Positions 1 to 64,000 of a DNA stretch of 64,000 nt are shown here, piece after piece (within the stretch, counting starts at the first letter, position 1; each line of letters opens with the position of its first letter). The position numbers were made by a program, and so were the translations under genes. The stretch is from a virus: positions 10,718 to 74,717 of the IMG/VR virus record IMGVR_UViG_3300008267_000780. One strand, 5' to 3'. The notes below the pieces were generated by a model. That model was not told the DNA's origin. It did not search any database and saw only the letters and a program-made list of their open reading frames with translations.

Positions 1-5
1 TTGAA

Positions 6-242
6 ATGTTAAAAATACTAAAGGAGTCAAAAATCTGTGATGGTATCCATATGTATGAAAATAATCCCGCAGTTGATGTATCCGATAAGGCTTATCAAAC
101 CGAAGTTTGGATTACTTTTTATCCTGAGCAGACCAAAGTTCTTCCGTTATATAAATTTACGGATTTTCTTCAAAACGGGAAAGAAATGGACAGAGGATGG
201 TTTACTAAATCACAATTTTTAAAAAGTGGAGGTACAATATGA
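6..242 (+). CDS. hypothetical protein (may be 5'-truncated); ends in KSGGTI
   Basis: 78-aa ORF coupled by ATGA overlap to the next gene; C-terminal xxGG tag. Confidence 0.6.
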   Translation: MLKILKESKICDGIHMYENNPAVDVSDKAYQTEVWITFYPEQTKVLPLYKFTDFLQNGKEMDRGWFTKSQFLKSGGTI

Positions 243-1573
243 ACATTGTTCAAGTAATGAAATTTGGGGGAGTTGATTTAAAATATTATAAAAATGCGGC
301 TGCACTTAATGGTAAAACGCTAAATAATGTTCAAATAGATGATGAGTGGGAGAATGCACAATATTATGCTTTAGAGGATTTCTATGCACTGCCGCCCGAA
401 CAAAAAATACCAATATTGATACAAATATCAAGAGTTTCGGGCAGTAAGATGTTTTTGGTTGGATTTTTTCAACACGAATTTCTTACAGCAAAAAATTATT
501 CGCGTGACGAAAATGTAAATTTAGAAATGATAATGAATCCTGTTGTCATTCCAAATTCGTATGGCTTTTACTACGAAGAAGAGGCGTATGATTTCTTTAT
601 GGACCTAAATGAGCGTTTTAATCAGCAGCAAACAGGCAATCCACCACCACAACCACCTGAAGAACAAAAAATTTTATTAGGCAGATTTGATATAAATTCT
701 GATAACATATTATACGTGTTTAGTTCTTCCATACAACCCGATGCGAGCGGTAACTTTATAGGAGAATATGTCACAACTTTAACGGATACAAATACGGCTT
801 CGACAAGTCCAAAATCTAAAGAGATAACTACGACTATTAATGGGGAAGAATATGATTTGTTGTTATTGTTTGACCAAGATTTTTCTGATAAAACATCTTT
901 GCCAATTCCTTCTACCTTTCCACAAGGAGGTGGTGGTCCGAAATCGCAAACTTGGTTTATTATTCCACTGAAAAACGATGGTACGGGTCACGGTACCCCA
1001 CCACCACAAATGCCTTCACAGGGCTCTCAAGGGTCACAGGGCTCTCAAGGGTCACAGGGCTCTCAAGGGTCACAGGGCTCTCAAGGTTCGGGTGGTTCAG
1101 GTGGTTCGGGTGGTTCAGGTGGCTCAGGCGGTTCAGGTGGCTCAGGTGGGTCAGGTGGTTCAGGCGGTTCAGGTGGCTCAGGCGGCTCAGGCGGCTCAGG
1201 CGGCTCAGGCGGCTCAGGCGGCTCAGGTGGCTCAGGTGGCTCAGGTGGCTCAAGTGGCTCAAGTGGTTCGCGAGGTGCAAGTACAGCGGGTTCAGCAGGA
1301 CGTGCAGGAACCTTAAATGGTGGTGGTGATGGTGGTGCTGTTTATGGTAGTACACAAACTTCAGACATACCTCTAATAGAAATGATTGCGGACAATCTGA
1401 ATAAAACGACAAACCAAGTACGTGGTCAATTAAGAACTGCGGGCTCTGCGATGATGTTCCTTGCATCAAATCCACAATCGGTTGAACCCATTAAACAAAA
1501 TTTAGGTTTATCGAATTCAAATATCTCGATGAATGAATTGGCAAAAAAAATAATTGAAAAAATAAGAGAATAA
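239..1573 (+). CDS. hypothetical protein with SQG/SGG low-complexity tract
   Basis: 444-aa ORF; MKFGG near the N-terminus; Gly-Ser repeat at about aa 260-345. Confidence 0.8.
   Translation: MNIVQVMKFGGVDLKYYKNAAALNGKTLNNVQIDDEWENAQYYALEDFYALPPEQKIPILIQISRVSGSKMFLVGFFQHEFLTAKNYSRDENVNLEMIMNPVVIPNSYGFYYEEEAYDFFMDLNERFNQQQTGNPPPQPPEEQKILLGRFDINSDNILYVFSSSIQPDASGNFIGEYVTTLTDTNTASTSPKSKEITTTINGEEYDLLLLFDQDFSDKTSLPIPSTFPQGGGGPKSQTWFIIPLKNDGTGHGTPPPQMPSQGSQGSQGSQGSQGSQGSQGSQGSGGSGGSGGSGGSGGSGGSGGSGGSGGSGGSGGSGGSGGSGGSGGSGGSGGSGGSSGSSGSRGASTAGSAGRAGTLNGGGDGGAVYGSTQTSDIPLIEMIADNLNKTTNQVRGQLRTAGSAMMFLASNPQSVEPIKQNLGLSNSNISMNELAKKIIEKIRE
1018..1270 (+). repeat. tandem 18-nt (tcacagggctctcaaggg) then 9-nt (ggYggYtca) repeats encoding (SQG)n(SGG)n
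   Basis: directly visible tandem repeat. Confidence 0.95.
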
Positions 1574-1578
1574 ATTAT

Positions 1579-2982
1579 ATGGCACAAAGAGGCACATTAG
1601 AATATTATCAGGACATTGTAAATGATACAACCAATCCTGAGTTAGTTAGAAATCAGGCACAAAAGCAAATTGACCGTTTGGCTTCAATTGGCTCTGCACA
1701 GGTTCAAACTGCGGCAACTACGGGCAATTTAGACCCTCAAATTCAAGCGGTCCTTAATGCGATGCAAGCGGCAGTAAATGCTTATGGGGGTAAATCAGCA
1801 AATCCACAGCAAATCAAACAAATTGTAGATGACGAAATTGCTAAAGCAAAAATCGATTTTTCTCAATTAAGCGATGGATTAAAGGCGATGCTTCAGTCTC
1901 AGACGAAAGTCGAATTGACTTTGCGTCAGATGGCTGCTGTGTCTACAAAAGTTGTAAGCAATGCCTTTATTAAGCGTCCACTTGTTCAAGATTTGTTATC
2001 CGACGTACAAGCGCGAAATAACGCTTATTTGTATGGAGGTGCGGGAACAGGAAAAACATATACTGCGGGTGAAATAGCAGATTTGTTGGATTGGGAATTA
2101 ATTACTTTGAACTGTAACCAATTTACTTCTCCGATTGATATTATAGGAGGTCAAACCATCGATGGATATCAAGAAGGTAAAGTCTCTATGGCTTGGGCAA
2201 ATGAAATCATTTCTCCTAATGGTGATAAAAGAAAAGTTTCAGGAGTTGTCTTATTGTTGGATGAGTTACCTAAACTTGACCCAAACACTGCAGGTTTGTT
2301 AAACGAAGCCTTGGCAAAAGTCAAAGATTTCAAATTTGATAAGGTTACAGGAGCAACAAAGCCACCAACAATTCTAAATGGTAGAAATGAAAAATTGGTT
2401 TTGGGTAACTTAATGGTTATTGCAACGGGTAACGTACCCTTGAATACTGTTGACCCTGATTACGAAGCGAACTTTAAACAGGATTTGTCTTTGCAAGACC
2501 GTTTTGTGGGAAGCACTTACAAAATTTTCGTGGATTATGAATACGAATTCAATTCTATTATGGAAGGATTTGCATTCATTTGGATTTACGGTACCAAATT
2601 ACGTGAAAAAATTATTTCACTGAATGCTACAGGGCAAGCGTTTGTTTCCATTCGTCTTATGATGAACCTGAAAGAAACTTACAAGGTTTATAGAGAGGTA
2701 GTCGATAAGAATAAGCAAAATGTTGGAAACCAAGCCTTTGATTTAATTACAGACCCTAAAACAGTCGTAGAGTCACTTGTTACTTTTTTGGATTTGTTCA
2801 AACCTGCAATCAAACAGGCAATTCAAGACGACCCAAATACCAATCTTGACAACTTCAAAATGGTCTTGGACGCAAAAAATAAAATGCCATATAATGCTAA
2901 AGCACCTGATTTTAACACTCAAGATGAAATTAACGAGGCAAATCGTATGATTACTGCATACGAGGCAAGCAAAAATTCATAA
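1579..2982 (+). CDS. MoxR/CbbQ/CobS-type AAA+ ATPase
   Basis: Walker A GGAGTGKT, Walker B LLLDE, ATGN sensor-1, QDLSLQDRF arginine-finger region. Confidence 0.85.
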   Translation: MAQRGTLEYYQDIVNDTTNPELVRNQAQKQIDRLASIGSAQVQTAATTGNLDPQIQAVLNAMQAAVNAYGGKSANPQQIKQIVDDEIAKAKIDFSQLSDGLKAMLQSQTKVELTLRQMAAVSTKVVSNAFIKRPLVQDLLSDVQARNNAYLYGGAGTGKTYTAGEIADLLDWELITLNCNQFTSPIDIIGGQTIDGYQEGKVSMAWANEIISPNGDKRKVSGVVLLLDELPKLDPNTAGLLNEALAKVKDFKFDKVTGATKPPTILNGRNEKLVLGNLMVIATGNVPLNTVDPDYEANFKQDLSLQDRFVGSTYKIFVDYEYEFNSIMEGFAFIWIYGTKLREKIISLNATGQAFVSIRLMMNLKETYKVYREVVDKNKQNVGNQAFDLITDPKTVVESLVTFLDLFKPAIKQAIQDDPNTNLDNFKMVLDAKNKMPYNAKAPDFNTQDEINEANRMITAYEASKNS

Positions 2983-2987
2983 TCTCT

Positions 2988-17610: not shown

Positions 17611-18432
17611 ATGAGAGAACCATTATTGGGCGTAGCCGTCGGAAAGAAAGGTGTAGGTAAAACCTTTACGACCAATAGGGTCATAAAACAATATGTGATG
17701 GGTAATCCCGCTTCGGGAATTATGCCAAGAAAAGTTTTGATTTTAGATGCAAACGATGAATATACTGAGTACAAAGCGATTGCATTAAAAGATTTGATGT
17801 TGTTTAGTGTGCACCCTATGGTAGAAGCAAGAAGAATTAGGCCAATTCACGCGGATGGTAAAAAAATGACCTTGGACGATTTGGCAACCACTTTGAATTA
17901 CATTTTGGAAGTTTTTTCGGGTGGACTTTTATTGATTGAGGATATTAATCGTTTCACTTCTGATTTTATGCCTCAAGATTTGATGGGAGCAATTGCAACA
18001 AATCGACATCGTGATTTGGATATCATTTTGCACTATCAAGGAATAGGTCGTATTGGAACAAAAGTGTGGCAAAACATAAATTGGCTCAGGATGCATAAAA
18101 TTACTGAGTCAGCGATGCGACACGCGAAGAAGTTTGAAGACAAATATGAAATAATCCGCATATGCGAATTAATGGTCAATACACAATTCTTTGCAGGTAA
18201 CGAAAGGTACTATCAATATATTGATTGTGAGAATATGTGCTTTCAAGGTAAGGTAGATGAAAAGTTGTTTGCAGAAGCCTGTAAATTGTTTATTGAAGAG
18301 AATTATCGTAGAATTATTTCGCCTCTTTTACAAATTCGTGGAGTGGGTGACAAAAAGAAATTCACGGCTGATACTGCAATGAAGTCAGAAATGGAAAGAT
18401 TAAGGAAAATGTACTTGAAAAAACAATTGTAA
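17611..18432 (+). CDS. A32/FtsK-HerA-type genome packaging ATPase
   Basis: N-terminal Walker A GKKGVGKT, ILDANDEY, Walker B LLLIED, NRH..IILHYQ arginine-finger/Gln motif; small single-domain size. Confidence 0.75.
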   Translation: MREPLLGVAVGKKGVGKTFTTNRVIKQYVMGNPASGIMPRKVLILDANDEYTEYKAIALKDLMLFSVHPMVEARRIRPIHADGKKMTLDDLATTLNYILEVFSGGLLLIEDINRFTSDFMPQDLMGAIATNRHRDLDIILHYQGIGRIGTKVWQNINWLRMHKITESAMRHAKKFEDKYEIIRICELMVNTQFFAGNERYYQYIDCENMCFQGKVDEKLFAEACKLFIEENYRRIISPLLQIRGVGDKKKFTADTAMKSEMERLRKMYLKKQL

Positions 18433-18772: not shown

Positions 18773-19471
18773 ATGAGTAATATCCGTAAATACCTTGCTG
18801 ACGCACAGAATCGTGCTCACGAGGGCTTCTTGAATGCCGATGGCTTCTTTGATGACGATTTGAACTTCACCGCAGGTGATGATTTTATGTCTGCTAATGG
18901 CGACCCTATGCCTGCAGCGGCTCCAACCTCTCAGCCTTACATCATCCAAATTGCAAACACAGGTAGTGCTGTTTCCAATTTCAGTGTGTTGGGTTCATAC
19001 GAACAGTTGAGTGATACGGCAGCGTTCACTTCAGGTTCGTACACTTCAGGAAACGTGACGATTTCGTCTGCTATTCCTAACGTGACTTACCAACAGATGC
19101 TTTACCAATTTATGAACAACCCGTTCAGCATTGGTTTGACTTACATTCAGTCAGCATCAAGCACTCAGTTGTTGGAAACAATCAGCGTACAAACACGTGA
19201 CGCGAATGGTAACTTGGCACAAAAGCCATTGGTGCCAACCGTGGACCCATATCAGTTTCAGACTACAGTCCTTGCTCTCCGCTTCGGATACAGAATCGAT
19301 GGTTACACCAAATTGATTTTGAACCAAGTGTTAGCATCGACCACTGTGAAATTGTACTTGTACCCTGCAGACAACATCAATTTGGCTCGTGGATTGTCAG
19401 GTCGCGCTGTATCAAAAGATTTCAGCAGCCCAGGCATTGTGCGTGCTCAAACCGTGAAAATTCAGGGTTAA
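18773..19471 (+). CDS. candidate major capsid protein (single jelly-roll-like) with acidic N-terminal leader
   Basis: beta-strand-rich 232 aa; follows the packaging ATPase; own promoter and terminator; TTC/TAC/AAC codon preference suggests high expression; paralogues at 49961-50772. Confidence 0.65.
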   Translation: MSNIRKYLADAQNRAHEGFLNADGFFDDDLNFTAGDDFMSANGDPMPAAAPTSQPYIIQIANTGSAVSNFSVLGSYEQLSDTAAFTSGSYTSGNVTISSAIPNVTYQQMLYQFMNNPFSIGLTYIQSASSTQLLETISVQTRDANGNLAQKPLVPTVDPYQFQTTVLALRFGYRIDGYTKLILNQVLASTTVKLYLYPADNINLARGLSGRAVSKDFSSPGIVRAQTVKIQG

Positions 19472-27294: not shown

Positions 27295-27672
27295 ATGAAT
27301 ATTAAAAAGGATTTTTTTAAAGGAGTTAGTCTTTACGCCACTGAATCTTCGGTTCAAGAATCAGAAGTTCAAGTGCGATTGACTATTGGTCAGAGTGAAT
27401 CTGAGCCTATCAATTATCAATGGTGCATTAATTGGCAGCCCAATCGTAATACGAATTATAACGAGGTTATGGGTCGCAAAATTATCAATATCACTGAGGC
27501 TTTAGTGGCACCTATGTTGCATCAAGCAATGGTCAAGTGGGCAAGAACTCTTGACATTTCATTAGAAAATTTTAGTGGTTTCTTGTTCAAGAAAGACGAT
27601 GTTATTGGTGTTGCTATCTACGATAAGACAACCCCAAAAAAATTATGTCCAATTGAAGAATTACTTGGATGA
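27295..27672 (+). CDS. hypothetical protein
   Basis: ATG at 27295, coupled to the next gene. Confidence 0.7.
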   Translation: MNIKKDFFKGVSLYATESSVQESEVQVRLTIGQSESEPINYQWCINWQPNRNTNYNEVMGRKIINITEALVAPMLHQAMVKWARTLDISLENFSGFLFKKDDVIGVAIYDKTTPKKLCPIEELLG

Positions 27673-28550
27673 GCGTCAAAGTCGCAAGAAGTTCCCATTG
27701 GGTTATTAGGACTCTCGAGGGGAACGGTTTAGCCGTTTATTTAGGCGAAGACGATGTAATTTATGTAAAGGACCAAAACGGGTCCATACAGCCGTTAAAG
27801 GAACTTATTGGGTCCCTATCGGTGGATGTCCCTGAAGGTGGTTTTCAAAGTGGTACTTCAGGTACTTCGGGAAAAACAAATGGAACATCGGGTTCATCGG
27901 GAACGAGCGGTTCCAATGGGCAAGACGGAACGTCGGGTGAAAATGGATTGGACGGTACATCGGGGTCATCAGGTTCTTCAGGAAGTTCAGGAACAAGCGG
28001 CATTGACGGTTCGTCAGGCTCTTCAGGTTATAGCGGTGTGGATGGAAGTTCAGGAAGTTCGGGAACTTCAGGCGTAAATGGAATCGATGGCTCATCAGGA
28101 ACGAGCGGAAATGGCGGTACAAACGGAACGAGTGGTATCAATGGAACATCGGGCTCTTCAGGAAAAGATGGAGATATTGGGGCAAAGGGAAGCAATGGAA
28201 CCTCAGGCTCTTCGGGGGTTTGCGGTTCTTCAGGTACGAGCGGTGTAGGATATTCATTTGAGCAAATTGATAGTCGGTCAAAGACATTATTGGATTTTAC
28301 AAAAAGTCAAATTCTTTTCCTAAATTTGAATAATAACACGACACTAAATTTTGCAGGTTTTCCTGTTGGAATATTTTATCTGATAGTAAAGCAAGGTATT
28401 GGTAACTACAGTGTTACATTCCCTTATGTCCTTAAACAAGCAAAAGGGTTTGAATATGTTCCAAGCATTTTCCCGAATGCTGTAGATGTGTTACAATTTA
28501 TGTGCGATGGCACATCATTTTATGTGATTGACTGCAAAAAAGAATACTAA
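27669..28550 (+). CDS. short Gly-X-Y (GTS/GSS) fibre protein
   Basis: about 130 aa of Gly-X-Y; C-terminal beta domain; N-terminus shared with 28550. Confidence 0.75.
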   Translation: MSVKVARSSHWVIRTLEGNGLAVYLGEDDVIYVKDQNGSIQPLKELIGSLSVDVPEGGFQSGTSGTSGKTNGTSGSSGTSGSNGQDGTSGENGLDGTSGSSGSSGSSGTSGIDGSSGSSGYSGVDGSSGSSGTSGVNGIDGSSGTSGNGGTNGTSGINGTSGSSGKDGDIGAKGSNGTSGSSGVCGSSGTSGVGYSFEQIDSRSKTLLDFTKSQILFLNLNNNTTLNFAGFPVGIFYLIVKQGIGNYSVTFPYVLKQAKGFEYVPSIFPNAVDVLQFMCDGTSFYVIDCKKEY

Positions 28551-41200: not shown

Positions 41201-44200
41201 GCTCATCAGCAACTTCGGGCTCTGCAGGTTCGTCAGGGACTTCAGGAAGTGCGGGTTCATCAGGTACTTCGGGAGCAAATGGTTCGAGCGGAACAAGCGG
41301 TAGCGCAGGTTCTTCGGGTTCTACAGGTTCATCAGGCACCTCAGGTTCAAGCGGAACAAGCGGAAGTGCAGGCTCAAGCGGTTCTACGGGTTCAAGCGGA
41401 ACATCAGGCTCTGCAGGTTCAAGTGGCACTTCGGGTTCTGCAGGTTCTTCAGGAAGTGCGGGCTCATCAGGTACTTCAGGCGCAAATGGTTCAAGCGGAA
41501 CAAGCGGAAGCGCAGGTTCTTCAGGAAGCACAGGTTCATCAGGAACATCGGGTTCTTCAGGAACAAGCGGTAGCACGGGTTCTTCGGGGTCTACAGGCTC
41601 AAGCGGAACAAGCGGTAGCGCAGGTTCTTCAGGAACATCGGCATCAAGTGGAAGTTCAGGAAGCGCAGGTACATCAGGAAGTTCAGGAACATCAGGGGCC
41701 AACGGCTCAAGCGGTACTTCAGGTTCTGCAGGCAGTGCGGGCTCAAGTGGTTCTACAGGTTCAAGTGGTACTTCGGGTTCATCAGGAACAAGTGGTAGCA
41801 CGGGTTCAAGTGGTTCGACAGGTTCATCAGGTTCTACAGGCTCATCAGGTTCTACAGGGACTTCAGGCTCAAGCGGTTCATCAGGAACTTCAGGAGCAAA
41901 CGGTTCAAGTGGTACAAGCGGTAGTGCGGGTTCGTCAGGTTCCACAGGTTCTTCAGGGACATCAGGCTCAAGCGGAACATCAGGAAGCGCGGGTTCAAGC
42001 GGCTCTACGGGCTCTTCAGGCACATCAGGTTCTTCAGCAACTTCGGGTTCTGCAGGTTCATCAGGAACTGCAGGCTCTGCAGGTTCTTCGGGAACTTCAG
42101 GTGCAAATGGCTCAAGCGGTTCAAGCGGAACAAGTGGTAGTTCGGGTTCTTCAGGCTCTACAGGTTCTTCAGGAACATCAGGTTCAAGCGGAACAAGCGG
42201 AAGCGCGGGTTCTTCGGGTTCAACGGGTTCAAGCGGTACAAGCGGCTCTTCAGGAACATCGGCATCAAGCGGAAGTTCAGGAAGCGCAGGCACATCAGGT
42301 AGTTCGGGTACTTCAGGAGCAAATGGTTCAAGTGGCTCAAGTGGAACAAGTGGTTCTTCAGGAAGCGCAGGTTCAACAGGGTCATCAGGCTCATCAGGAA
42401 CTTCGGGTTCGAGCGGAACAAGTGGTTCAACAGGTTCAAGCGGCTCTACGGGCTCAAGTGGGTCTACGGGTACATCGGGTTCAAGCGGTTCAAGCGGAAC
42501 TTCGGGAGCAAATGGTTCAAGTGGTTCATCAGGAACAAGTGGTAGTGCAGGTTCAAGTGGAACAAGTGGTTCTGCGGGTTCATCAGGAACATCAGGCTCT
42601 GCAGGCTCTTCGGGAACTTCAGGCACAGCGGGTTCAAGTGGAACATCAGGAACACGTGGTTCTTCAGGTTCATCAGGCTCTACAGGTTCTTCAGGGACTT
42701 CGGGTTCATCAGGAACAAGTGGTAGCACGGGTTCATCAGGCTCTACAGGTTCAAGCGGAACATCAGGCTCTTCGGGAACATCTGCATCAAGCGGAAGTTC
42801 AGGAAGCGCGGGTACATCGGGCTCAAGCGGAACTTCAGGAGCGAATGGTTCGTCAGGTACTTCGGGCTCTTCAGGAAGTGCGGGTTCAAGCGGTTCAACA
42901 GGTTCTTCAGGCACATCAGGCTCAAGCGGTACATCAGGAAGCGCAGGTTCAAGTGGTTCTACAGGTTCTTCAGGAACAAGCGGTAGCGCAGGTTCTTCAG
43001 GCACATCGGGTTCTGCAGGCTCGTCAGGCACATCAGGTGCAAATGGCTCATCAGGAACATCGGGTTCTTCAGGTAGTGCGGGTTCATCGGGTTCTACGGG
43101 TTCTTCAGGAACATCAGGCTCAAGCGGTACATCAGGAAGCGCAGGTTCTTCAGGCTCTACAGGCTCAAGTGGAACAAGCGGTAGCGCAGGTTCTTCAGGC
43201 ACATCAGGTTCTGCAGGCTCTTCAGGCACATCAGGTGCAAACGGTTCAAGTGGTACAAGTGGCTCAAGCGGAAGCGCAGGTTCAAGCGGTTCTACGGGAA
43301 GTTCAGGAACCTCGGGTTCAAGTGGAACAAGTGGTAGCACAGGTTCAAGCGGGTCAACAGGTTCAAGCGGAACGAGTGGTAGTGCAGGTTCTTCAGGAAC
43401 ATCAGGCTCGGCAGGTTCAAGCGGAACGAGTGGTAGCGCAGGTTCTTCAGGCACATCAGGCACAGCAGGTTCAAGTGGTACTTCGGGAACACGTGGTTCT
43501 TCAGGTTCATCAGGTTCTACAGGAACGAGCGGTTCAAGCGGAACAAGTGGAAGCACAGGTTCAAGCGGCTCTACGGGCTCAAGTGGTACTTCGGGTTCGT
43601 CAGGAACCTCGGCATCAAGCGGAAGTTCAGGAAGTGCGGGTACCTCAGGTAGTTCAGGAACTTCAGGGGCAAATGGCTCAAGTGGCTCAAGTGGAACAGC
43701 AGGTTCTTCAGGAAGCGCGGGTTCTTCAGGTTCTACAGGTTCTTCGGGAACAAGTGGTTCATCAGGAACGAGTGGTAGCACGGGCTCAAGCGGTTCTACA
43801 GGCTCAAGTGGGTCTACGGGAACATCGGGGTCAAGTGGCTCAAGCGGAACATCAGGGGCAAATGGCTCAAGTGGTTCTTCAGGAACGAGCGGAAGCGCAG
43901 GCTCATCAGGAACTTCGGGTTCAGCGGGCTCATCAGGAACGAGCGGAAGCGCAGGTTCAAGCGGAACAAGTGGTAGCGCAGGTTCAAGCGGGTCAACGGG
44001 CTCTTCGGGAACTTCAGGCTCAAGTGGCTCGTCGGGTACATCGGGTGCCAACGGCTCAAGTGGCTCAAGCGGAACAGCAGGTTCTTCAGGAAGTGCGGGT
44101 TCTACGGGTTCTTCAGGGTCTTCAGGCACAGCAGGGTCGTCAGGTACGGCAGGTTCTTCGGGTAGTGCGGGCTCAAGTGGCTCTACAGGCTCAAGCGGTA

Positions 44201-47200
44201 CTGCGGGCTCAAGCGGCTCTTCAGGCACATCGGGTGCAAATGGCTCAAGTGGTTCTGCAGGTTCAAGTGGTACTTCAGGAACAGCAGGTTCAAGTGGTAC
44301 TTCAGGAACGCGAGGTTCGTCAGGGTCATCAGGCTCTACAGGTTCAAGTGGGTCTACGGGTACGTCAGGCTCAAGCGGTTCAAGTGGCACATCGGGCTCG
44401 AGCGGGTCTTCAGGCACATCAGGAGCGAATGGTTCAAGCGGCTCTTCAGGAACAAGTGGTTCTTCAGGAAGCACGGGTTCAAGTGGGTCTACGGGTTCAT
44501 CAGGAACAGCAGGTTCTTCAGGAAGTGCGGGTTCTACAGGGTCTTCAGGCTCTTCAGGAACAGCAGGTTCATCAGGTACATCGGCATCAAGTGGTAGTTC
44601 AGGAAGTGCAGGCACATCAGGCGCAAATGGCTCGAGCGGCTCAAGCGGAACGAGCGGTTCTTCAGGAAGCGCGGGTTCTACAGGGTCTTCAGGCTCTTCA
44701 GGAACAGCAGGTTCATCAGGCACATCGGGTTCTGCGGGTAGTGCAGGCTCAAGCGGCTCTACGGGCTCAAGCGGTACATCAGGCTCAAGCGGGTCTTCGG
44801 GTACATCAGGTGCAAATGGCTCAAGCGGTTCAAGTGGAACAAGCGGGTCTGCAGGTTCAAGTGGTTCTACGGGCTCATCGGGTTCGTCAGGAACTGCAGG
44901 TTCAAGCGGTACTGCAGGTTCTTCAGGTTCTACAGGCTCAAGCGGGTCTACGGGCTCAAGCGGAACTGCGGGTTCAAGCGGGTCTTCAGGCACATCGGGT
45001 GCAAATGGCTCAAGCGGTTCAAGTGGAACAAGTGGTTCTGCGGGGTCTTCGGGAACTTCGGGAACAGCGGGGTCAAGCGGTACTTCAGGAACTCGGGGTT
45101 CATCGGGTTCATCGGGTTCGACAGGCTCAAGTGGTTCAACGGGTACATCAGGCTCAAGCGGTTCGAGCGGAAGCGCGGGTACGTCAGGTGCAAACGGTTC
45201 GAGCGGAACAAGCGGTTCTTCAGGAAGTGCGGGTTCTACAGGCTCTTCAGGCTCTTCAGGAACAAGTGGTTCAAGCGGAACAAGCGGAAGTGCAGGTTCA
45301 AGCGGTTCTACAGGCTCAAGTGGGTCTACGGGTACTTCGGGCTCAAGTGGCTCAAGCGGAAGTGCAGGCACATCAGGTGCAAACGGTTCTTCAGGAACGG
45401 CAGGTTCTTCAGGAAGCGCAGGTTCAAGTGGGTCTACGGGTTCTTCAGGAACTGCAGGTTCTTCAGGTAGTGCAGGTTCTACGGGTTCTTCGGGTTCTTC
45501 AGGAACTGCGGGTTCGAGTGGAACTTCGGGCTCATCAGGAAGCGCAGGTTCAAGCGGAAGCGCGGGTACATCGGGTGCAAATGGTTCAAGCGGAACTTCG
45601 GGCTCATCAGGAAGTGCAGGTTCTACGGGCTCATCAGGTTCGTCAGGAACTGCAGGCTCAAGTGGAACATCAGGAACGAGGGGTTCTTCAGGCTCAAGCG
45701 GTTCTACGGGTTCCTCAGGCTCCACAGGAACCTCAGGCTCAAGCGGAAGCGCAGGCACATCAGGTGCAAACGGTTCTTCAGGAACGTCAGGTTCTTCAGG
45801 AAGCGCAGGTTCAAGTGGGTCGACAGGGTCAAGTGGAACATCAGGTTCTTCAGGAAGTGCGGGTTCTACAGGCTCATCAGGTTCTTCGGGAACAGCGGGT
45901 TCATCAGGAACATCGGCATCAAGTGGAAGTTCAGGAAGCGCAGGTACTTCAGGGGCAAACGGTTCTTCGGGTACTTCGGGCTCATCAGGAAGCGCAGGTT
46001 CTACGGGCTCATCAGGCTCAAGCGGAACAGCGGGCTCATCAGGAAGCGCAGGTTCGAGTGGCTCTACAGGGTCAAGCGGAACAGCGGGCTCATCAGGAAG
46101 TGCAGGTTCTACGGGTTCAAGCGGTTCTACGGGTACATCGGGCTCAAGCGGTTCGAGTGGAAACACGGGGGCAGCGGGGTCAAGCGGAACGAGTGGGTCT
46201 TCAGGTAGCGCAGGTTCAACGGGTTCGAGCGGGTCTTCAGGAACTGCGGGTTCTTCAGGAACATCGGGCACAAGAGGTTCATCAGGTTCAAGTGGGTCTA
46301 CAGGTTCGAGTGGTTCTACGGGTACATCAGGCTCAAGCGGTTCGAGTGGAAACACAGGAGCAGCGGGGTCAAGCGGAACGAGCGGGTCTTCAGGAAGTGC
46401 AGGTTCGACAGGTTCAAGTGGTTCTACAGGTACATCGGGCTCAAGCGGTTCGAGTGGAAACACGGGCGCAGCGGGTTCAAGTGGAACGAGCGGGTCTTCA
46501 GGCAGCGCAGGTTCGACAGGTTCAAGTGGTTCTACGGGTACATCGGGCTCAAGCGGTTCGAGTGGAAACACAGGTGCTGCGGGTTCAAGTGGAACGAGCG
46601 GTTCGAGTGGAAACACAGGTGCGGCAGGTTCTTCGGGAACTTCAGGCTCAAGCGGCTCAAGTGGTAACACAGGTGCGGCAGGTTCAAGCGGAACGAGCGG
46701 TTCGAGTGGAAACACAGGAGCGGCAGGTTCTTCGGGAACTTCAGGCTCAAGCGGCTCAAGTGGTAACACAGGTGCGGCAGGTTCAAGCGGAACGAGCGGT
46801 TCGAGTGGAAACACGGGTGCGGCAGGTTCATCAGGGACTTCAGGTGCAAACGGTGCTGCGGGCTCAAGCGGAACAAGCGGTTCATCAGGAACTTCAGGCG
46901 CAAACGGAGCGGCAGGTTCTTCAGGAACGTCGGGTACACGAGGTTCATCAGGAACTTCGGGCGCAAACGGAGCAAACGGTTCGTCAGGAACTTCAGGCGC
47001 AAACGGAGCAAATGGTTCGTCAGGAACTTCGGGAGCAAATGGAGCGGCAGGTTCTTCGGGAACTTCGGGCGCAAATGGAGCGGCAGGTTCCTCGGGAACT
47101 TCGGGTACACGTGGTTCAAGTGGAACATCGGGTGCAAATGGAGCAAATGGTTCATCAGGTACGTCAGGCGCGAATGGAGCAAACGGTTCATCAGGTACAT

Positions 47201-47757
47201 CAGGCGCGAATGGGGCGGCAGGTGCTGCAGGTTCATCAGGTACGAGCGGTACGAGCGTAGCGGTGAGCGGTACGACAAACAGAATCGTTAAATTCACTGC
47301 ATCGACCACGATAGGAAACGCAAACGCGTCCGACGATGGAACGACATTCGAAGTATTGAATACGGTTGGATTTAAGGCAGCCAAATCGTTAGCGGTAGGT
47401 GCTTTGTCACCATCCGCAACCACAGGACGAATTGATGCTTCAAACGACATCGTAGCGTTCTCTACATCAGACAAACGATTCAAAGAAAACGTGAAGCGAA
47501 TTGAAAACGCTCTCGAGAAAATCAAGACAATCGGTGGATACTCATTCGATTGGCGCGAGGAAGGCTTCGAGGCTCACGGATTCAAAGGAAGTGATGTCGG
47601 AGTAATCGCGCAGGAAATCGAATCAGTGTTGCCCGAAATCGTGAAGGTGAAAGCCAACGGATTCAAGGGTGTACGTTACGAAAAAATTATCGCCTTGGTG
47701 ATTGAAGCAATCAAGGAGTTGGATGACAAAGTTGAACAATTAAAGAAGCAACAGTAA
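35206..47757 (+). CDS. giant 4183-aa Gly-X-Y (Ser/Thr/Ala) fibre with C1q/BclA-like internal domain and C-terminal peptidase S74 chaperone
   Basis: about 3400 contiguous Gly-X-Y residues; beta domain at about 36505-36960; SDKRFKEN..GVIAQE..VRYEKIIALVIEAIKEL. Confidence 0.9.
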   Translation: MAKNILITPYRNSTNPLELPKIDFINGSTAITLQVEETTQSITYVGSAGTLLQINNDLTGTTVSTKNIAITGVIKNTGITSNSGLNDFVVVDIATGQFYYRSAPTGTSGSSGQSGTSGTSGANGSSGTSGANGSSGTSGANGSSGTSGANGSSGTSASSGTSGSTGSSGTSGANGSSGTSGVNGSSGTSGTSGENGSSGTSGENGSSGTSGENGSSGTSGENGSSGTSGENGSSGTSGENGSSGSSGTSGANGSSGTSGANGTSGTSGGSGASISDGWDWGTPINATKMYSSNGALDSSSVLLNISETSLTSQNYASQFSLIGIGSKITTRGGLFGANVTEWEVTSVTDSGTYYEFGVTYLSGTQWTPSTGDDILCDFAIAGQAGTSGTAGTSGANGSSGTSGANGTSGTSGENGTSGTSGSTGSSGTSGAGVANYYAQYSSSVSQAIAVVNTPQVITYNTVEIENGISFSGGQITVQYSGIYEFSFSPQVEKTQGGTAVNVDFFIRKNGFDVIRTDSIIGLVSNSQLQLPFVSLTLELLQNDFIELLFASSSTFVQITAEAAKTTPFVAPAAPSVIVSLKNIGVAAVAYTSTSGSSGQSGTAGVSGTSGSTGTSGSSGESGTAGTSGIAGTSGTSGDSGSSGTSGTGGSSGSSGDSGSSGTSGTGGSSGTSGTGGSSGSSGNSGSSGTSGTGGSSGTSGTGGSSGSSGNSGSSGTSGTGGSSGSSGNSGSSGTSGTGGSSGSSGDSGSSGTSGTGGSSGTSGTGGSSGTSGTGGSSGSSGDSGSSGTSGTGGSSGSSGDSGSSGTSGTGGSSGTSGSSGSSGSTGTSGSTGSSGSSGSAGTSGSTGSSGSAGTSGSTGSSGTSGSTGSSGTSASSGSSGSAGTSGESGSAGTSGSTGSSGSSGSTGTSGSTGSSGSSGSAGTGGSSGTSGTGGSSGSSGDSGSSGTSGTGGSSGTSGTGGSSGSSGDSGSSGTSGTGGSSGTSGSSGSSGSTGTSGSTGSSGSSGSAGTSGSTGTSGSTGTSGSSGTSGSTGSSGSTGSSGTSGSSGTSGSTGSSGTSGSTGTSGSAGSAGSSGSTGSSGTSGSSGTSGSTGSSGSTGSSGTSGSSATSGSAGSSGTAGSAGSSGTSGANGSSGTSGSAGSSGSTGSSGTSGSSGTSGSAGSSGSTGSSGTSGSSGTSGSTGSSGSTGSSGTSGSTGSSGSTGTSGSTGTSGSSGSSGTSGANGSSGTSGSAGSSGSTGSSGTSGSSGTSGSTGSSGSTGSSGTSGSSGTSASSGTSGTAGTSGSAGTSGENGSSGTSGSSGSAGSTGSSGTSGSSGTSGSTGSSGSTGSSGTSGSSATSGSTGSSGTSGANGSSGTSGSSGSAGTSGSTGSSGTSGSSGTSGSTGSSGSTGSSGTSGTSATSGSAGSSGTSGSTGSSGTSGSAGSSGTSGSVGSSGTSGSAGSSGTSGSTGSSGSTGSSGTSGTSATSGSAGSSGSTGSSGTSGSSGTSGSTGSSGSTGSSGTSGSTGSSGTSGANGSSGTSGSAGSSGTAGSAGSSGTSGANGSSGTSGSSGSAGSSGSTGSSGTSGSSGTSGSTGSSGSTGSSGTSGSAGTSGSSGSSGTSGANGSSGTSGSAGSSGSTGSSGTSGSSGTSGSTGSSGSTGSSGTSGSSGTSASSGSSGSAGTSGSAGTSGANGSSGTSGSSGSAGSSGSTGSSGTSGSSGTSGSAGSSGSTGSSGTSGSAGSSGTSGSAGSSGTSGANGSSGTSGSSGSAGSSGSTGSSGTSGSSGTSGSTGSSGSTGSSGTSGSSGTSASSGSSGTSGSAGSSGTSGANGSSGTSGSAGSAGSSGSTGSSGTSGSSGTSGSTGSSGSTGSSGTSGSSATSGSAGSSGTAGSSGSSGTSGANGSSGTSGSAGSTGSSGTSGSTGSSGTSGSSGTSGTAGSSGTSGSTGSSGSTGSSGTSGSSGTSGANGSSGTSGSSGSAGSSGSTGSSGTSGSSGTSGSTGSSGSTGSSGTSGSSATSGSAGSSGTSGSAGSSGTSGANGSSGTSGSAGSSGSTGSSGTSGSSGTSGSAGSSGSTGSSGTSGSAGSSGTSGSAGSSGSAGSSGTSGANGSSGTSGSAGSSGSTGSSGTSGSSGTSGSTGSSGSTGSSGTSGSAGSSGTSASSGSSGSAGTSGSSGTSGANGSSGTSGSAGSAGSSGSTGSSGTSGSSGTSGSTGSSGSTGSSGSTGSSGSTGTSGSSGSSGTSGANGSSGTSGSAGSSGSTGSSGTSGSSGTSGSAGSSGSTGSSGTSGSSATSGSAGSSGTAGSAGSSGTSGANGSSGSSGTSGSSGSSGSTGSSGTSGSSGTSGSAGSSGSTGSSGTSGSSGTSASSGSSGSAGTSGSSGTSGANGSSGSSGTSGSSGSAGSTGSSGSSGTSGSSGTSGSTGSSGSTGSSGSTGTSGSSGSSGTSGANGSSGSSGTSGSAGSSGTSGSAGSSGTSGSAGSSGTSGTAGSSGTSGTRGSSGSSGSTGSSGTSGSSGTSGSTGSSGSTGSSGTSGSSGTSASSGSSGSAGTSGSSGTSGANGSSGTSGSSGSAGSSGSTGSSGTSGSSGTSGSAGSSGSTGSSGTSGSAGSSGTSGSAGSSGTSGANGSSGTSGSSGSAGSSGSTGSSGTSGSSGTSGSAGSSGSTGSSGTSGSAGSSGTSGSAGSSGTSGANGSSGTSGSSGSAGSSGSTGSSGTSGSSGTSGSTGSSGSTGSSGTSGSAGSSGTSGSAGSSGTSGSAGSSGTSGTAGSSGTSGTRGSSGSSGSTGTSGSSGTSGSTGSSGSTGSSGTSGSSGTSASSGSSGSAGTSGSSGTSGANGSSGSSGTAGSSGSAGSSGSTGSSGTSGSSGTSGSTGSSGSTGSSGSTGTSGSSGSSGTSGANGSSGSSGTSGSAGSSGTSGSAGSSGTSGSAGSSGTSGSAGSSGSTGSSGTSGSSGSSGTSGANGSSGSSGTAGSSGSAGSTGSSGSSGTAGSSGTAGSSGSAGSSGSTGSSGTAGSSGSSGTSGANGSSGSAGSSGTSGTAGSSGTSGTRGSSGSSGSTGSSGSTGTSGSSGSSGTSGSSGSSGTSGANGSSGSSGTSGSSGSTGSSGSTGSSGTAGSSGSAGSTGSSGSSGTAGSSGTSASSGSSGSAGTSGANGSSGSSGTSGSSGSAGSTGSSGSSGTAGSSGTSGSAGSAGSSGSTGSSGTSGSSGSSGTSGANGSSGSSGTSGSAGSSGSTGSSGSSGTAGSSGTAGSSGSTGSSGSTGSSGTAGSSGSSGTSGANGSSGSSGTSGSAGSSGTSGTAGSSGTSGTRGSSGSSGSTGSSGSTGTSGSSGSSGSAGTSGANGSSGTSGSSGSAGSTGSSGSSGTSGSSGTSGSAGSSGSTGSSGSTGTSGSSGSSGSAGTSGANGSSGTAGSSGSAGSSGSTGSSGTAGSSGSAGSTGSSGSSGTAGSSGTSGSSGSAGSSGSAGTSGANGSSGTSGSSGSAGSTGSSGSSGTAGSSGTSGTRGSSGSSGSTGSSGSTGTSGSSGSAGTSGANGSSGTSGSSGSAGSSGSTGSSGTSGSSGSAGSTGSSGSSGTAGSSGTSASSGSSGSAGTSGANGSSGTSGSSGSAGSTGSSGSSGTAGSSGSAGSSGSTGSSGTAGSSGSAGSTGSSGSTGTSGSSGSSGNTGAAGSSGTSGSSGSAGSTGSSGSSGTAGSSGTSGTRGSSGSSGSTGSSGSTGTSGSSGSSGNTGAAGSSGTSGSSGSAGSTGSSGSTGTSGSSGSSGNTGAAGSSGTSGSSGSAGSTGSSGSTGTSGSSGSSGNTGAAGSSGTSGSSGNTGAAGSSGTSGSSGSSGNTGAAGSSGTSGSSGNTGAAGSSGTSGSSGSSGNTGAAGSSGTSGSSGNTGAAGSSGTSGANGAAGSSGTSGSSGTSGANGAAGSSGTSGTRGSSGTSGANGANGSSGTSGANGANGSSGTSGANGAAGSSGTSGANGAAGSSGTSGTRGSSGTSGANGANGSSGTSGANGANGSSGTSGANGAAGAAGSSGTSGTSVAVSGTTNRIVKFTASTTIGNANASDDGTTFEVLNTVGFKAAKSLAVGALSPSATTGRIDASNDIVAFSTSDKRFKENVKRIENALEKIKTIGGYSFDWREEGFEAHGFKGSDVGVIAQEIESVLPEIVKVKANGFKGVRYEKIIALVIEAIKELDDKVEQLKKQQ
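36985..47255 (+). repeat. about 10.3-kb degenerate 9-nt-period coding repeat (GSS/GTS/GST/GSA/GAN)
   Basis: directly visible. Confidence 0.95.
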
Positions 47758-53114: not shown

Positions 53115-53115
53115 T

Positions 53116-54115: not shown

Positions 54116-54588
54116 AAATGCAAAATGTCATTGAGGGTTTGTCCCTGATTTAATACATAACAATTAGACTCAAGTTGTCTTTCAATTAACCAATCGTTCC
54201 AATTATCCATTACAAGTTGTATTAGGCTCATCGGAGACCCACGACGTTCCATCCGCTTATAATATTCTTTTTTGCAGTTCAGAGCGGGTACTACTATAGA
54301 AAAATCAATAAAGTTTTCTTGTAAACACTGACGAACATTTTCGTGACTACTGACAAATACAAAGTCAAGAAAATCGTGTTTCATTTGAAATTTAATGTGG
54401 TCAATATAGTTTTGAGGAAAATCAGGATTTGGCATTCTTGAGCCACTATGAGTCATAAGAAAATCTCCATTAGGGTCCGTAAGCCAATTCCATTGACTTG
54501 AATCAAGGTCAACACACATAAAATTAGAATTGCGCGCTGCATAAGTTTTTCCAATCGCAGGAAAGCCTGAAATTACTTTTGTAGCCAT
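54100..54588 (-). CDS. P-loop kinase-like protein
   Basis: VISGFPAIGKT, DLDSS, FPQNYIDHI, VSSH. Confidence 0.7.
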   Translation of the reverse strand: MATKVISGFPAIGKTYAARNSNFMCVDLDSSQWNWLTDPNGDFLMTHSGSRMPNPDFPQNYIDHIKFQMKHDFLDFVFVSSHENVRQCLQENFIDFSIVVPALNCKKEYYKRMERRGSPMSLIQLVMDNWNDWLIERQLESNCYVLNQGQTLNDILHLWKTV

Positions 54589-63142: not shown

Positions 63143-63214
63143 TGCGGGGAAGTGTATTGGTTGCATTTGTGGCTCATAACCACGAGGTAGTGGGTTCGAT
63201 TCCTACCCCCGCAA
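63143..63214 (+). tRNA. tRNA-Met(CAT), initiator-like sequence; no encoded CCA
   Basis: acceptor tgcgggg/ccccgca; anticodon arm tgtgg-ctCATaa-ccacg; T arm gtggg-TTCGATT-cctac. Confidence 0.85.
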
Positions 63215-63226
63215 CAAATTACAAAT

Positions 63227-63868
63227 ATGGAACTTGAAAAATATGTGTATCCCGAAAATCACGGTGCGTTAGTAGAGGCCTTTTATGATGAAATTTATCA
63301 CGGCCACGAATACGACAGGTATTTCAAAATTCAACCACACGACATTGTTATTGATTGCGGAGGCTTTGTAGGCCTTTTTACCAATTATGCGCTATCTCAG
63401 GGCGCGAGTACCGTTATCACCGTAGAGTGCGAACCTGAGTATTGGAAATGCTTGATTAAAAATGTCAAGTCGTATGACGCTCAAGTAATATTTGGGCGCG
63501 TGTTTCAAGACGACATACCAACTACGAATCCTGATGTGGCTCCATCATATTCAATTGAAGGAATAATGAATCTGAAAAATCTACCTAAGGTCGATATGGT
63601 GAAGATGGATATTGAAGGAGCAGAATGGGGCGTTTTAATTAATATGGATGATGATGTGATGAAGCGGGTGGACAGATGGGCGATTGAAGTGCATTTGGAG
63701 TGGAGTCAGAATGACACGGTGTGGGCAGGTCACGGTAGAGACTTTGACGGGCACCTTTTAAGCAAACTTGTTTTCGTGATGGAGAAATTCTCCAAGAATG
63801 GATTCAAAGTCAATTATGAGCAGATACACAAGAGTTGCAGACTTGCAATGTTGTATGCATACAAATAA
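63227..63868 (+). CDS. FkbM-family methyltransferase
   Basis: IDCGGFVGLF, KMDIEGAE, IEVH. Confidence 0.8.
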   Translation: MELEKYVYPENHGALVEAFYDEIYHGHEYDRYFKIQPHDIVIDCGGFVGLFTNYALSQGASTVITVECEPEYWKCLIKNVKSYDAQVIFGRVFQDDIPTTNPDVAPSYSIEGIMNLKNLPKVDMVKMDIEGAEWGVLINMDDDVMKRVDRWAIEVHLEWSQNDTVWAGHGRDFDGHLLSKLVFVMEKFSKNGFKVNYEQIHKSCRLAMLYAYK

Positions 63869-63897
63869 GATTTAGTGTTTAGTTTCCGCAAAAATAT

Positions 63898-63919
63898 GGC
63901 CCCTGTGGGGCCTTTTTTT
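63898..63919 (+). terminator. rho-independent terminator
   Basis: ggcccc-tgt-ggggcc followed by T7. Confidence 0.75.
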
Positions 63920-64000
63920 GTTTAATGGGTACTTGTACCCCATTTACCCCTTTTCCTTTCCCTGAGGGCCTCCTTTTCACTATTAGGCCTAACCCTGTTA

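What the first reader, a model, noticed from the sequence alone, without database searches (positions are those of the whole stretch)
1..64000. Restriction-site purge strong enough to remove Pro-Gly from the proteome
Seen by eye in sampled stretches, not counted exhaustively: no GATC, AGCT, CATG, CTAG, CCGG or CTGG, and one CCAG, while GTAC, TCGA, TGCA and GGCC are common. In the parts of the 10-kb Gly/Ser repeat I read, GGA is never followed by TCN, and NCT/NCC codons never precede GGN. Every Pro-Gly encoding (CCN GG) contains CCAG, CTGG or CCGG. I found only one PG in the real proteins (MCP SSPGI, about 19430). Motifs I recall as PG-containing in their families are rewritten: YNAGTG (SLT YNAGPG), GFPAIGKT (GFPGxGK), FPFIK (LPD29 FPGVK) and TVDNG/LVEGQY in the endolysin. 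Inference: anti-restriction selection overrides protein constraint and may explain why the Gly-X-Y fibres lack Pro in the Y position.
Basis: partly seen in the sequence, partly recalled or inferred. Interest (0 to 1): 0.78.

Follow-up and report, generated by a model that had tools for sequence, protein, structure and literature searches.

The report
Restriction-site purge that forbids Pro-Gly
A common freshwater virus has removed seven 4-letter DNA words, almost certainly targets of DNA-cutting host defences, so completely that the amino-acid pair Pro-Gly cannot be spelled and survives at one spot in its proteins; the strategy is well known and this protein-level cost also occurs in other phages.

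Summary
The 74.7-kb genome that holds the window has no GATC, AGCT, CTAG, CCGG or CTGG, one CATG and one CCAG. Shuffling synonymous codons predicts 100-320 copies of each word. Pro-Gly occurs once, against 48 expected (79 with the giant fibre).

The cause acts on DNA. Out-of-frame CCNGG is also absent (37 expected). G000 and a relative differ at 3,009 bases, yet neither holds a purged word beyond the shared CCAGG.

Comparison with 86 related loci refines the reading. The word shared across the family is CCNGG, and Pro-Gly is missing even where CCAG/CTGG are common. Relatives also purge GGNCC, GGCC, GCNGC and ACNGT, and with them lose Gly-Pro, Trp-Pro, Ala-Ala and Thr-Val. These states switch 4-14 times on the family tree. 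In partly purged relatives, the sites that remain are mostly those that cannot be removed silently.

One rewritten motif is verified: the Walker A motif reads FPAIGKT here, and 7 of 8 cultured-phage homologues have FPGxGK. The SLT example fails.

Staphylococcus phage K shows the same effect (no GGNCC or GCNGC, so no Gly-Pro or Ala-Ala). This scan has already recorded several similar cases on other DNA. This is an extreme, family-wide example of known restriction-site avoidance. The host and its enzymes remain inferred.

The parts
1..64000 (.). Purge of GATC, AGCT, CATG, CTAG, CCGG and CCAG/CTGG across the whole window; it continues over the remaining 10.7 kb of the contig.
   Evidence: counts; synonymous-shuffle expectations of 102-319 per word; 3,009 mismatches to L001 without any purged word created.
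19430..19435 (+). The only Pro-Gly codon pair (CCA GGN) and the only CCAG/CCNGG site in the genome.
   Evidence: The same SPG[IV]V[RK] site is kept in the closer relatives and in the purge-relaxed L020 and L057, encoded by CCAGG 17 times, CCTGG 9 times and CCGGG once.
18773..19471 (+). Putative capsid protein (232 aa) that carries the retained Pro-Gly near its C-terminus.
   Evidence: It lies directly after the HerA/FtsK-like ATPase gene. The AlphaFold model has low confidence (pLDDT 55) with a beta-sandwich core. Fold matches are weak (Z <= 6) and include jelly-roll capsid proteins of phiCjT23, FLiP and PR772. The capsid role is not proven.
54544..54567 (-). Walker A motif G-F-P-A-I-G-K-T of a 162-aa P-loop protein (phrog_4182); Pro-Ala stands where homologues have Pro-Gly.
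   Evidence: Homologues in PBS1, Serratia 2050HW, PaBG, Morganella MP1, Tenacibaculum PTm5, Salmonella PMBT31 and Acinetobacter Navy71 read FPG[x]GK[ST]; only LP65 reads FPAMGKT.
2035..2058 (+). Walker A motif GGAGTGKT of the AAA_5/MoxR-like ATPase.
   Evidence: Canonical AAA+ ATPases have GPPGxGK (my own knowledge); this was not tested against homologues here.
35206..47757 (+). Giant 4,183-aa collagen-like fibre: 1,119 Gly-X-Y triplets, Ser/Thr/Ala-rich, with no Pro at X or Y.
   Evidence: Ser before Gly uses only TCA, TCG, AGC or AGT, which explains the excess of CAGG.
27669..28550 (+). Smaller collagen-like fibre protein with 39 triplets and no Pro at X or Y.
   Evidence: (PF01391, E 2.8e-17).
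17611..18432 (+). HerA/FtsK-like packaging ATPase, used as the family marker to collect relatives.

Best explanation
The virus is under strong, continuing selection to carry no copy of a set of short DNA words. The most likely reason is that these words are recognition sites of restriction-type nucleases in its freshwater hosts, which are probably Bacteroidota.

Most sites are removed by context-dependent synonymous codon choice. CCNGG in reading frame is always Pro-Gly, because Pro is CCN and Gly is GGN. In this genome every CCNGG contains CCGG, CCAG or CTGG, so removing the word means removing the dipeptide. Proteins were therefore changed (for example to PN, AG, NG, DG or PA) everywhere except one capsid-protein site.

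The same logic links other words to dipeptides: GGNCC to Gly-Pro, GGCC to Trp-Pro, GCNGC to Ala-Ala and ACNGT to Thr-Val. These pairs disappear in relatives that purge those words.

Shown: the absences, that they act at the DNA level, that they are maintained, that they switch on and off among relatives, and one rewritten motif.

Inferred: that restriction enzymes are the selective agent, and the identity of the host.
For: Absence against a codon-preserving null, in all three frames: out-of-frame CCNGG is 0 against 37 expected.

Context-specific codon choice.

G000 and L001 are 84% identical over 19 kb with 3,009 mismatches, yet neither holds a purged word beyond the shared CCAGG. About 8.9% of random single changes would create one. 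None of 40 population variants seen in three other lake or river runs creates one (P about 0.02).

Five of the six purged words are 4-bp palindromes, and further depleted words are mostly 6-bp palindromes. A CCAG-specific methyltransferase is documented (PMC10689673).

Across 74 related loci, purge states change 4-14 times per word on the ATPase tree, while ACGT, GTAC, TGCA and GTNAC are never purged. This fits changing host enzyme repertoires.

Each dipeptide is missing wherever its word is missing. A relaxed relative (G005) has PG 24 against 32 expected and GP 15 against 32.

In partly purged relatives, residual sites are nearly all the in-frame, non-removable ones: CCNGG 13/13, 5/5 and 3/3; GCNGC 12/13 and 12/12.

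The Walker A Pro-Gly is replaced.

The same word-and-dipeptide loss is seen in Staphylococcus phage K, whose relatives are reported to avoid Sau3AI and Sau96I sites (PMC6346686).
Against: No host, restriction enzyme or methylome is known for this virus.

GATC, CCGG and CCNGG are purged in nearly the whole family, down to about 40% ATPase identity. That breadth could point to something intrinsic to the viruses rather than to individual hosts.

CCAG/CTGG (and CAGG/CCTG in other clades) are non-palindromic 4-mers, which is unusual for Type II avoidance.

A search for the DpnII family in four Bacteroidota MAGs that hold relatives found nothing. This is a weak negative, because the MAGs are incomplete and GATC enzymes belong to several families.

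Many G000 proteins have no recognisable family, so a virus-encoded nuclease cannot be excluded.
Confidence: 0.8

Rival explanations
1. The virus makes or packages its own site-specific nucleases to destroy host DNA, as chloroviruses do. It protects itself by carrying no sites rather than by methylation.
For: GATC, CCGG and CCNGG are purged almost family-wide. No DNA methyltransferase is recognisable in G000. Earlier notes of this scan link purges in giant viruses to virus-encoded restriction cassettes (not checked here).
Against: No restriction-endonuclease family was detected in any G000 protein scanned against Pfam, PHROGs or PADLOC. The nucleases found are RusA and a RecT-associated PDDEXK exonuclease. 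Six or more specificities would be needed, and they would have to switch many times within the family.
Confidence: 0.07
2. The words are avoided because host methyltransferases would mark them, and the marked sites are attacked by methylation-dependent (Type IV) nucleases in the next host or disturb viral functions. The avoided event would be modification, not cleavage of unmodified DNA.
For: Having no sites protects equally against both classes. Rusinov et al. note that Type IV sites overlap CCNGG and CCGG (PMC6286503). The word sets CCAG, CCGG and CCTG resemble a CCDG-type motif in some clades (L005-L009).
Against: Nothing here distinguishes this from classical restriction. The sequence signature is identical.
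Confidence: 0.08
3. Selection acts on proteins: Pro-Gly is disfavoured, for example by a protease or a folding problem, and the DNA words are lost as a by-product.
For: Pro-Gly is the most depleted dipeptide.
Against: Out-of-frame CCNGG is also absent (0 against 37 expected). GATC, AGCT, CATG and CTAG, which force no amino-acid change, are absent too. A family member with a relaxed purge has near-normal Pro-Gly.
Confidence: 0.01
4. Mutation bias, such as deamination of methylated cytosines, eroded the words without selection.
For: Several of the words contain cytosines that common methyltransferases modify (my own knowledge).
Against: The counts are zero, not merely low. GATC carries adenine methylation, which is not mutagenic. 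CTAG, an expected decay product of CCAG-type sites, is itself absent. There are 3,009 substitutions between G000 and L001 without a single site created. One site is conserved in the capsid gene.
Confidence: 0.02
5. The pattern is an assembly or database artefact.
For: None.
Against: In 18 freshwater, lake, river and 'fungus'-labelled metagenome runs from 12 studies, at least 97% of the sampled 31-mers of a 9-kb stretch are present. Contigs of four runs match with 0 differences over 7-10 kb, although these runs may include the source sample. More than 80 independent related contigs show related but different purges.
Confidence: 0.005

Closest known systems
Staphylococcus phage K (Kayvirus) and Rosenblumvirus podoviruses, which avoid Sau3AI (GATC) and Sau96I (GGNCC) sites (PMC6346686)
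   Same: Complete loss of 4-5-bp restriction words. In the first 50 kb of phage K I counted GATC 0; GGNCC 0 with Gly-Pro 0 (16 expected); GCNGC 0 with Ala-Ala 0 (20 expected). Pro-Gly is normal there at 18 against 16. Dipeptide loss through N-interrupted palindromes therefore exists in a textbook phage.
   Different: The host and its enzymes are known there. Those are tailed phages of Firmicutes. Different words are involved; here it is CCNGG with Pro-Gly, plus non-palindromic CCAG/CTGG. I found no paper that states the dipeptide consequence.
Restriction-site (short palindrome) avoidance in dsDNA phages, surveyed by Rusinov et al. 2018 (PMC6286503) and reviewed in PMC8410138
   Same: Under-representation of Type II recognition palindromes, strongest in non-temperate phages, and achieved through codon choice.
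   Different: This case is absolute (zero copies of five words in 75 kb). It runs through a whole virus family and reaches amino-acid sequence. The review says only that a non-synonymous contribution 'cannot be excluded'. The survey does not mention amino acids.
Earlier cases in this scan: proteomes without Pro-Gly, Gly-Pro, Ala-Ala or Trp-Pro in a Clostridia phage, freshwater and wastewater phages, an Acinetobacter-type phage and archaeal viruses
   Same: The same logic (CCNGG, GGNCC, GCNGC, GGCC) and the same verdict: an extreme case of a known strategy.
   Different: This case is in a putatively tailless virus family with a HerA-type ATPase. It has family-wide tree mapping and adds ACNGT with Thr-Val, non-palindromic 4-mers and the signature of residual in-frame sites. 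Those earlier notes were not re-checked here.
CCAG-specific methyltransferase of Helicobacter pylori A45 (PMC10689673)
   Same: It shows that a 4-bp asymmetric CCAG specificity exists in bacterial R-M-type systems. This matches the non-palindromic word purged here.
   Different: It comes from an unrelated bacterium. No cognate nuclease is shown, and there is no link to this virus's host.

Membership tests
Restriction-site avoidance (anti-restriction by loss of recognition words) | Specific short words lie far below expectation under a null that keeps composition, protein sequence and codon usage. | tested here: met
   0-1 observed against 102-319 expected per word; the minimum in 100 shuffles was 83.
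Restriction-site avoidance (anti-restriction by loss of recognition words) | The avoided words are palindromes or known R-M specificities. | tested here: met
   GATC, AGCT, CATG, CTAG and CCGG are 4-bp palindromes with classical Type II enzymes (my own knowledge). CCAG has a documented methyltransferase. Further depleted words are mainly 6-bp palindromes.
Restriction-site avoidance (anti-restriction by loss of recognition words) | Avoidance acts on DNA: all frames, both strands, through synonymous choice wherever possible. | tested here: met
Restriction-site avoidance (anti-restriction by loss of recognition words) | The word set differs among related viruses, tracking host repertoires. | tested here: met
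   4-14 state changes per word on the ATPase tree of 74 loci. That the differences track hosts is not shown.
Restriction-site avoidance (anti-restriction by loss of recognition words) | The host encodes nucleases that cut the avoided words. | not testable with these tools
   The host is unknown. MAG titles (6 of 12 Bacteroidota) and names such as Maribacter and Flavobacterium only suggest the phylum. The DpnII family was not found in 4 MAGs, which is inconclusive.
Self-protection by a virus-encoded DNA methyltransferase | A DNA methyltransferase gene with N6/N4 (DPPY-like) or C5 (PCQ) motifs. | tested here: not met
   No Pfam, PHROG or PADLOC DNA-methyltransferase hit was found. The only methyltransferase domains are FkbM-type or an unclassified SAM domain fused to sugar enzymes. 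There is a 13-bit DrmMII-like hit with E 0.006. No DPPY or PCQ motif occurs in any ORF.
Virus-encoded restriction system (chlorovirus type) | A recognisable restriction endonuclease gene in the virus. | tested here: inconclusive
   None was detected in the scanned proteins, but many ORFs have no family and restriction enzymes are hard to recognise.
First-entering (T5 pre-early type) site-free block | The purge is confined to one end of the genome. | tested here: not met
   The zero counts hold over all 74.7 kb.

The most novel reading that the evidence does not exclude
In this virus family, DNA-level evasion of defences has been maintained long enough to fix the chemistry of its proteins. Pro-Gly, and in most members also Gly-Pro and Trp-Pro (and in some Ala-Ala and Thr-Val), are excluded from whole proteomes.

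With both Gly-Pro and Pro-Gly unspellable, a Gly-X-Y repeat cannot contain proline at all. That would have forced the evolution of the proline-free, Ser/Thr-rich (probably glycosylated) collagen-like fibres seen here.

More generally, missing dipeptides would give a read-out, from protein sequence alone, of which interrupted-palindrome restriction specificities a virus lineage has faced.
Probability: 0.35. Interest if true: 0.7.

Novelty: new member of a known kind. Interest (0 to 1): 0.5.

Why it matters
This case shows how far selection from DNA-targeting defences can reach. Beyond bending codon usage, it deletes whole dipeptides from a proteome and rewrites a Walker A motif.

It also gives a simple rule. 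Five interrupted palindromes are built from fourfold-degenerate codon boxes, and each maps to one dipeptide: CCNGG to PG, GGNCC to GP, GCNGC to AA, ACNGT to TV and GTNAC to VT. In addition, GGCC maps to WP.

Three practical consequences follow:
- Dipeptide gaps could serve as a quick fingerprint of restriction pressure in uncultured viruses.
- Motif-based annotation and homology models should expect rewritten Pro-Gly and Gly-Pro motifs in such viruses.
- Phage engineering for host-range work can use the same rule.

The mechanism itself is not new.

Tried and rejected

**No cultured relative.** Megablast, blastn and tblastn of the window, the ATPase and the capsid-like gene against the phage collection found nothing.

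**SLT motif.** phmmer of the SLT-like protein against the PDB gave no hit. A family profile reached MltC and EmtA, which read YNGGAGS, so the 'YNAGPG rewritten' example is not supported.

**AAA+ ATPase.** The PDB search returned only midasin at low score, which is not informative for the Walker A motif.

**RecT as an outgroup.** All 120 homologues are themselves depleted in Pro-Gly and Gly-Pro (6 against 67 expected), so they are not an outgroup.

**Host enzymes.** The DpnII family was absent from four Bacteroidota MAGs that hold relatives. This is uninformative.

**Pro in fibres of relaxed relatives.** G005, G006 and G007 have no collagen-like gene, so whether fibres regain Pro could not be tested.

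**Softer depletion of dipeptides with few allowed codon pairs.** The effect is weak (Spearman 0.18). Only Asp-Gln, with 1 of 4 codon pairs allowed, stands out at O/E 0.52.

**Capsid-like protein model.** The pLDDT is 55 and the C-terminal Pro-Gly region is below 50. Fold matches have Z <= 6 and are generic beta-sandwiches, so nothing can be said about why that Pro-Gly is kept.

**Population variants.** Only about 57 variant letters were found in four runs, 40 of them listed. None creates a purged word, but the test is weak (P about 0.02), and the runs may include the source sample.

**Lactobacillus phage LP65.** It has the only homologue with FPAMGKT. It is only partly depleted in CCNGG (17 against 54) and Pro-Gly (13 against 26), so it is not a clean parallel.


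Full report
**What the sequence is.** The window is bases 10718-74717 of a single 74,717-bp IMG/VR virus contig. The contig is linear, with CheckV completeness 89%. It has no relative among cultured phages at the DNA or protein level.

Its genes include:
- a HerA/FtsK-like ATPase, followed by a 232-aa beta-sandwich protein that is a putative capsid protein (the fold evidence is weak);
- many small membrane proteins;
- glycosyltransferase/FkbM fusion enzymes, collagen-like fibres, RecT, a PDDEXK exonuclease and RusA.

In 18 freshwater, lake, river and 'fungus'-labelled metagenome runs from 12 studies (2017-2024), at least 97% of the sampled 31-mers of a 9-kb stretch are present. Contigs from four of these runs match with 0 differences over 7-10 kb. 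Some of these runs may include the source sample. The sequence is real and the virus is widespread.

**Check of the observation.**
- In the window, GATC, AGCT, CATG, CTAG and CCGG occur 0 times and CCAG/CTGG once. The next most depleted 4-mer has O/E 0.62.
- Over the whole contig the only additions are one CATG at genome position 214. GTAC, TCGA, TGCA and GGCC are common.
- With proteins and codon usage held fixed and synonymous codons shuffled, the expected counts are GATC 309, AGCT 191, CATG 102, CTAG 120, CCGG 122, CCAG 137 and CTGG 319.
- Pro-Gly occurs once against 47.5 expected outside the giant fibre (79 with it). It lies at SSPGI in ORF 18773-19471 and is encoded by the single CCAGG at 19430.
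- The codon-context statements hold without exception: NCT/NCC never precede Gly, GGA never precedes TCN, His before G is CAC 59 to 1, and Asp before C is GAC 105 to 0.

**DNA level or protein level.** Every encoding of Pro-Gly is CCNGG, and each of the four versions contains CCGG, CCAG or CTGG, so the dipeptide cannot be spelled.

The direction of cause is clear from three results:
- CCNGG is also absent out of frame: 0 against 37 expected from shuffles.
- Four of the purged words never force an amino-acid change.
- A family member with a relaxed purge has near-normal Pro-Gly (see below).

The purge is actively maintained. G000 and L001 are 84% identical over 19 kb, with 3,009 mismatches. About 8.9% of random single changes would create a purged word, yet neither genome holds one beyond the shared CCAGG. 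None of 40 listed population variants creates one, although that test is weak.

**The family picture changes the reading.** The ATPase retrieved 86 related loci from IMG/VR and from MAGs. Its family has more than 600 members in metagenomes.

- Nearly all loci lack GATC, CCGG and CCNGG. Most also lack GGCC, CGCG and GGNCC.
- Pro-Gly is 0-1 in nearly all loci, including those where CCAG and CTGG are common (for example L010-L012 and L038). The shared causal word is therefore CCNGG. It is reached by three routes: CCAG/CTGG purged, CAGG/CCTG purged, or CCWGG alone purged.
- The same logic extends to other words. Where GGNCC is 0, Gly-Pro is 0. Where GGCC is 0, Trp-Pro is 0 (0 against 85 expected, pooled). 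Where GCNGC is 0, Ala-Ala is 0 (about 20 expected per locus). Where ACNGT is close to 0, Thr-Val is close to 0. GTNAC is never purged.
- On an ATPase tree of 74 loci, purge states change many times: CTAG 14, CATG 12, GCGC 11, CGCG 9, CAGG 9, GGCC 8, GGNCC 8, GCNGC 8, CCNGG 7, CCAG 7, AGCT 5, ACNGT 5, CCGG 5 and GATC 4. ACGT, GTAC and TGCA are never purged.

This mosaic pattern is what changing host enzyme repertoires would produce.

**Natural experiments.** Whole genomes of five relatives were fetched.

- G005 is relaxed: Pro-Gly 24 against 32 expected and Gly-Pro 15 against 32. The family's proteins therefore accept these dipeptides when the DNA constraint is lifted.
- In partly purged genomes, the sites that remain are mostly the ones that cannot be removed silently. 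In G006, CCNGG 13 are all Pro-Gly and GGNCC 3 are all Gly-Pro. In G008, CCNGG 5 are all Pro-Gly and 12 of 13 GCNGC are Ala-Ala. In G009, CCNGG 3 of 3, GCNGC 12 of 12 and ACNGT 12 of 16 are in frame.
- In unpurged states the in-frame share is only 30-77%. Silent sites go first; sites that encode the dipeptide go last.

G000 sits at the complete end of this range for Pro-Gly. It has relaxed GGNCC (99 sites), with Gly-Pro at 30 against 47.5 and Trp-Pro at 2 against 8.3, both still low. Its Gly-Pro sites are shared with the sister genomes L001-L003. GGNCC-purged relatives have MP, AP, GS or GK at those positions.

**Protein rewriting.**
- At the Pro-Gly positions of the tolerant relatives, purged members carry PN, AG, NG, GG, DG, SG or PP. 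One residue of the pair is kept and the other is replaced by a turn-compatible one.
- The P-loop protein at 54100-54588 (minus strand; phrog_4182) reads SGFPAIGKT. Seven of eight sampled homologues from cultured phages of unrelated hosts read FPG[x]GK[ST].
- The SLT example is not supported. The family reads YNAG[TY][GY], and the nearest solved homologues (MltC) read YNGGAGS.
- One Pro-Gly resists. SPG[IV]V[RK] near the C-terminus of the capsid-like protein is kept in the closer relatives and in the purge-relaxed L020 and L057; the more distant L012 and L013 read TPP there. It is encoded by CCAGG or CCTGG. From my own knowledge, several CCWGG/CCNGG enzymes need two sites to cut. That could make a single site tolerable, but it was not tested.

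**Fibres.** The 1,165 Gly-X-Y triplets of G000 have no Pro at X or at Y. The Y position is forced, because Pro-Gly cannot be spelled. The X position (Gly-Pro) is not forbidden in G000 today, but it was forbidden under the GGNCC purge that most of the family, including the sister clade, still shows. The idea that the purge made these collagens proline-free is therefore plausible as history, but not demonstrated. The relaxed relatives have no collagen-like genes with which to test it.

**Agent.** No DNA methyltransferase or restriction endonuclease is recognisable in G000. The virus therefore seems to rely on having no sites.

- Host restriction enzymes are the best-supported agent, by analogy with known cases: the words are palindromes and known specificities, and the sets differ by lineage.
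- CCAG is non-palindromic, but a CCAG-specific methyltransferase is documented (PMC10689673).
- The host is unknown. MAG titles (6 of 12 Bacteroidota) and source names (Maribacter, Flavobacterium) point weakly to Bacteroidota.
- A virus-encoded nuclease and methylation-dependent restriction are not excluded.

**Comparison with what is known.** Restriction-site avoidance is classical (PMC6286503, PMC8410138). In Staphylococcus phage K, I counted in the first 50 kb: GATC 0; GGNCC 0 with Gly-Pro 0 (16 expected); GCNGC 0 with Ala-Ala 0 (20 expected). Pro-Gly is normal there. The dipeptide effect is therefore present in a textbook phage.

I found no paper that states this consequence. This scan has recorded the same phenomenon on at least seven other genomes. 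One of those notes gave me the Trp-Pro/GGCC lead, which I then tested.

**Verdict.** The mechanism is known, and this is an unusually complete, family-wide case.

Noticed in passing
Most are 6-bp palindromes.
   Followed up: no
L001-L086 (relatives): Non-palindromic 4-mers are purged in alternating clades: CCAG/CTGG in 41 of 74 loci, CAGG/CCTG in 15 of 74, and both in L005-L009, L032, L034 and L037 (together CCDG/CHGG). No enzyme class was assigned; only a CCAG methyltransferase precedent was found.
   Followed up: partly
window 12001-32000: Contigs from lake and river metagenomes of four different studies match this virus with 0 differences over 7-10 kb. The population is remarkably uniform across sites and years, unless these are all one campaign or the source sample.
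   Followed up: partly
window 27342-28675: The collagen-like repeat recruits many foreign contigs (depth 41-59 against about 10-20). Their loose ends contain TCTGG, AGCT, GGATC, CTAG and CCGG. Related Ser-Gly repeats in the same waters therefore use the very words purged here.
   Followed up: no
window 50889-51674 (-), RecT: The 120 closest RecT homologues in public data, down to 32% identity, together hold 6 Pro-Gly (67 expected) and 3 Gly-Pro. This suggests the same purge in a wide set of, probably, Bacteroidota viruses.
   Followed up: partly
all non-repeat proteins of the contig: Met-Gln is low (8 against 20 expected) although no purged word forces it; this is unexplained. Asp-Gln is at 0.52 of expectation, and only GAC-CAA is an allowed codon pair for it.
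   Followed up: partly
window 51897-53171 (-): A 424-aa protein has an N-terminal SAM-methyltransferase motif (VLDVGAGSG; the Methyltransf_23 hit is below the cut-off) and an unassigned C-terminal part. It sits among recombination genes. It has no DNA-methyltransferase motifs, and its substrate is unknown.
   Followed up: partly
L097 and L128 (Lactobacillus phage LP65): This is the only sampled cultured-phage homologue with Pro-Ala in the Walker A motif (FPAMGKT). The phage is itself moderately depleted in CCNGG (17 against 54) and Pro-Gly (13 against 26).
   Followed up: partly
window 7439-11206 and neighbouring genes: Earlier first-stage notes on this genome describe diglycine-punctuated polyproteins and shared [FY]xNA[DN]G motifs. 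I did not examine them. The many xxGG and xADG motifs are compatible with the Pro-Gly ban.
   Followed up: no
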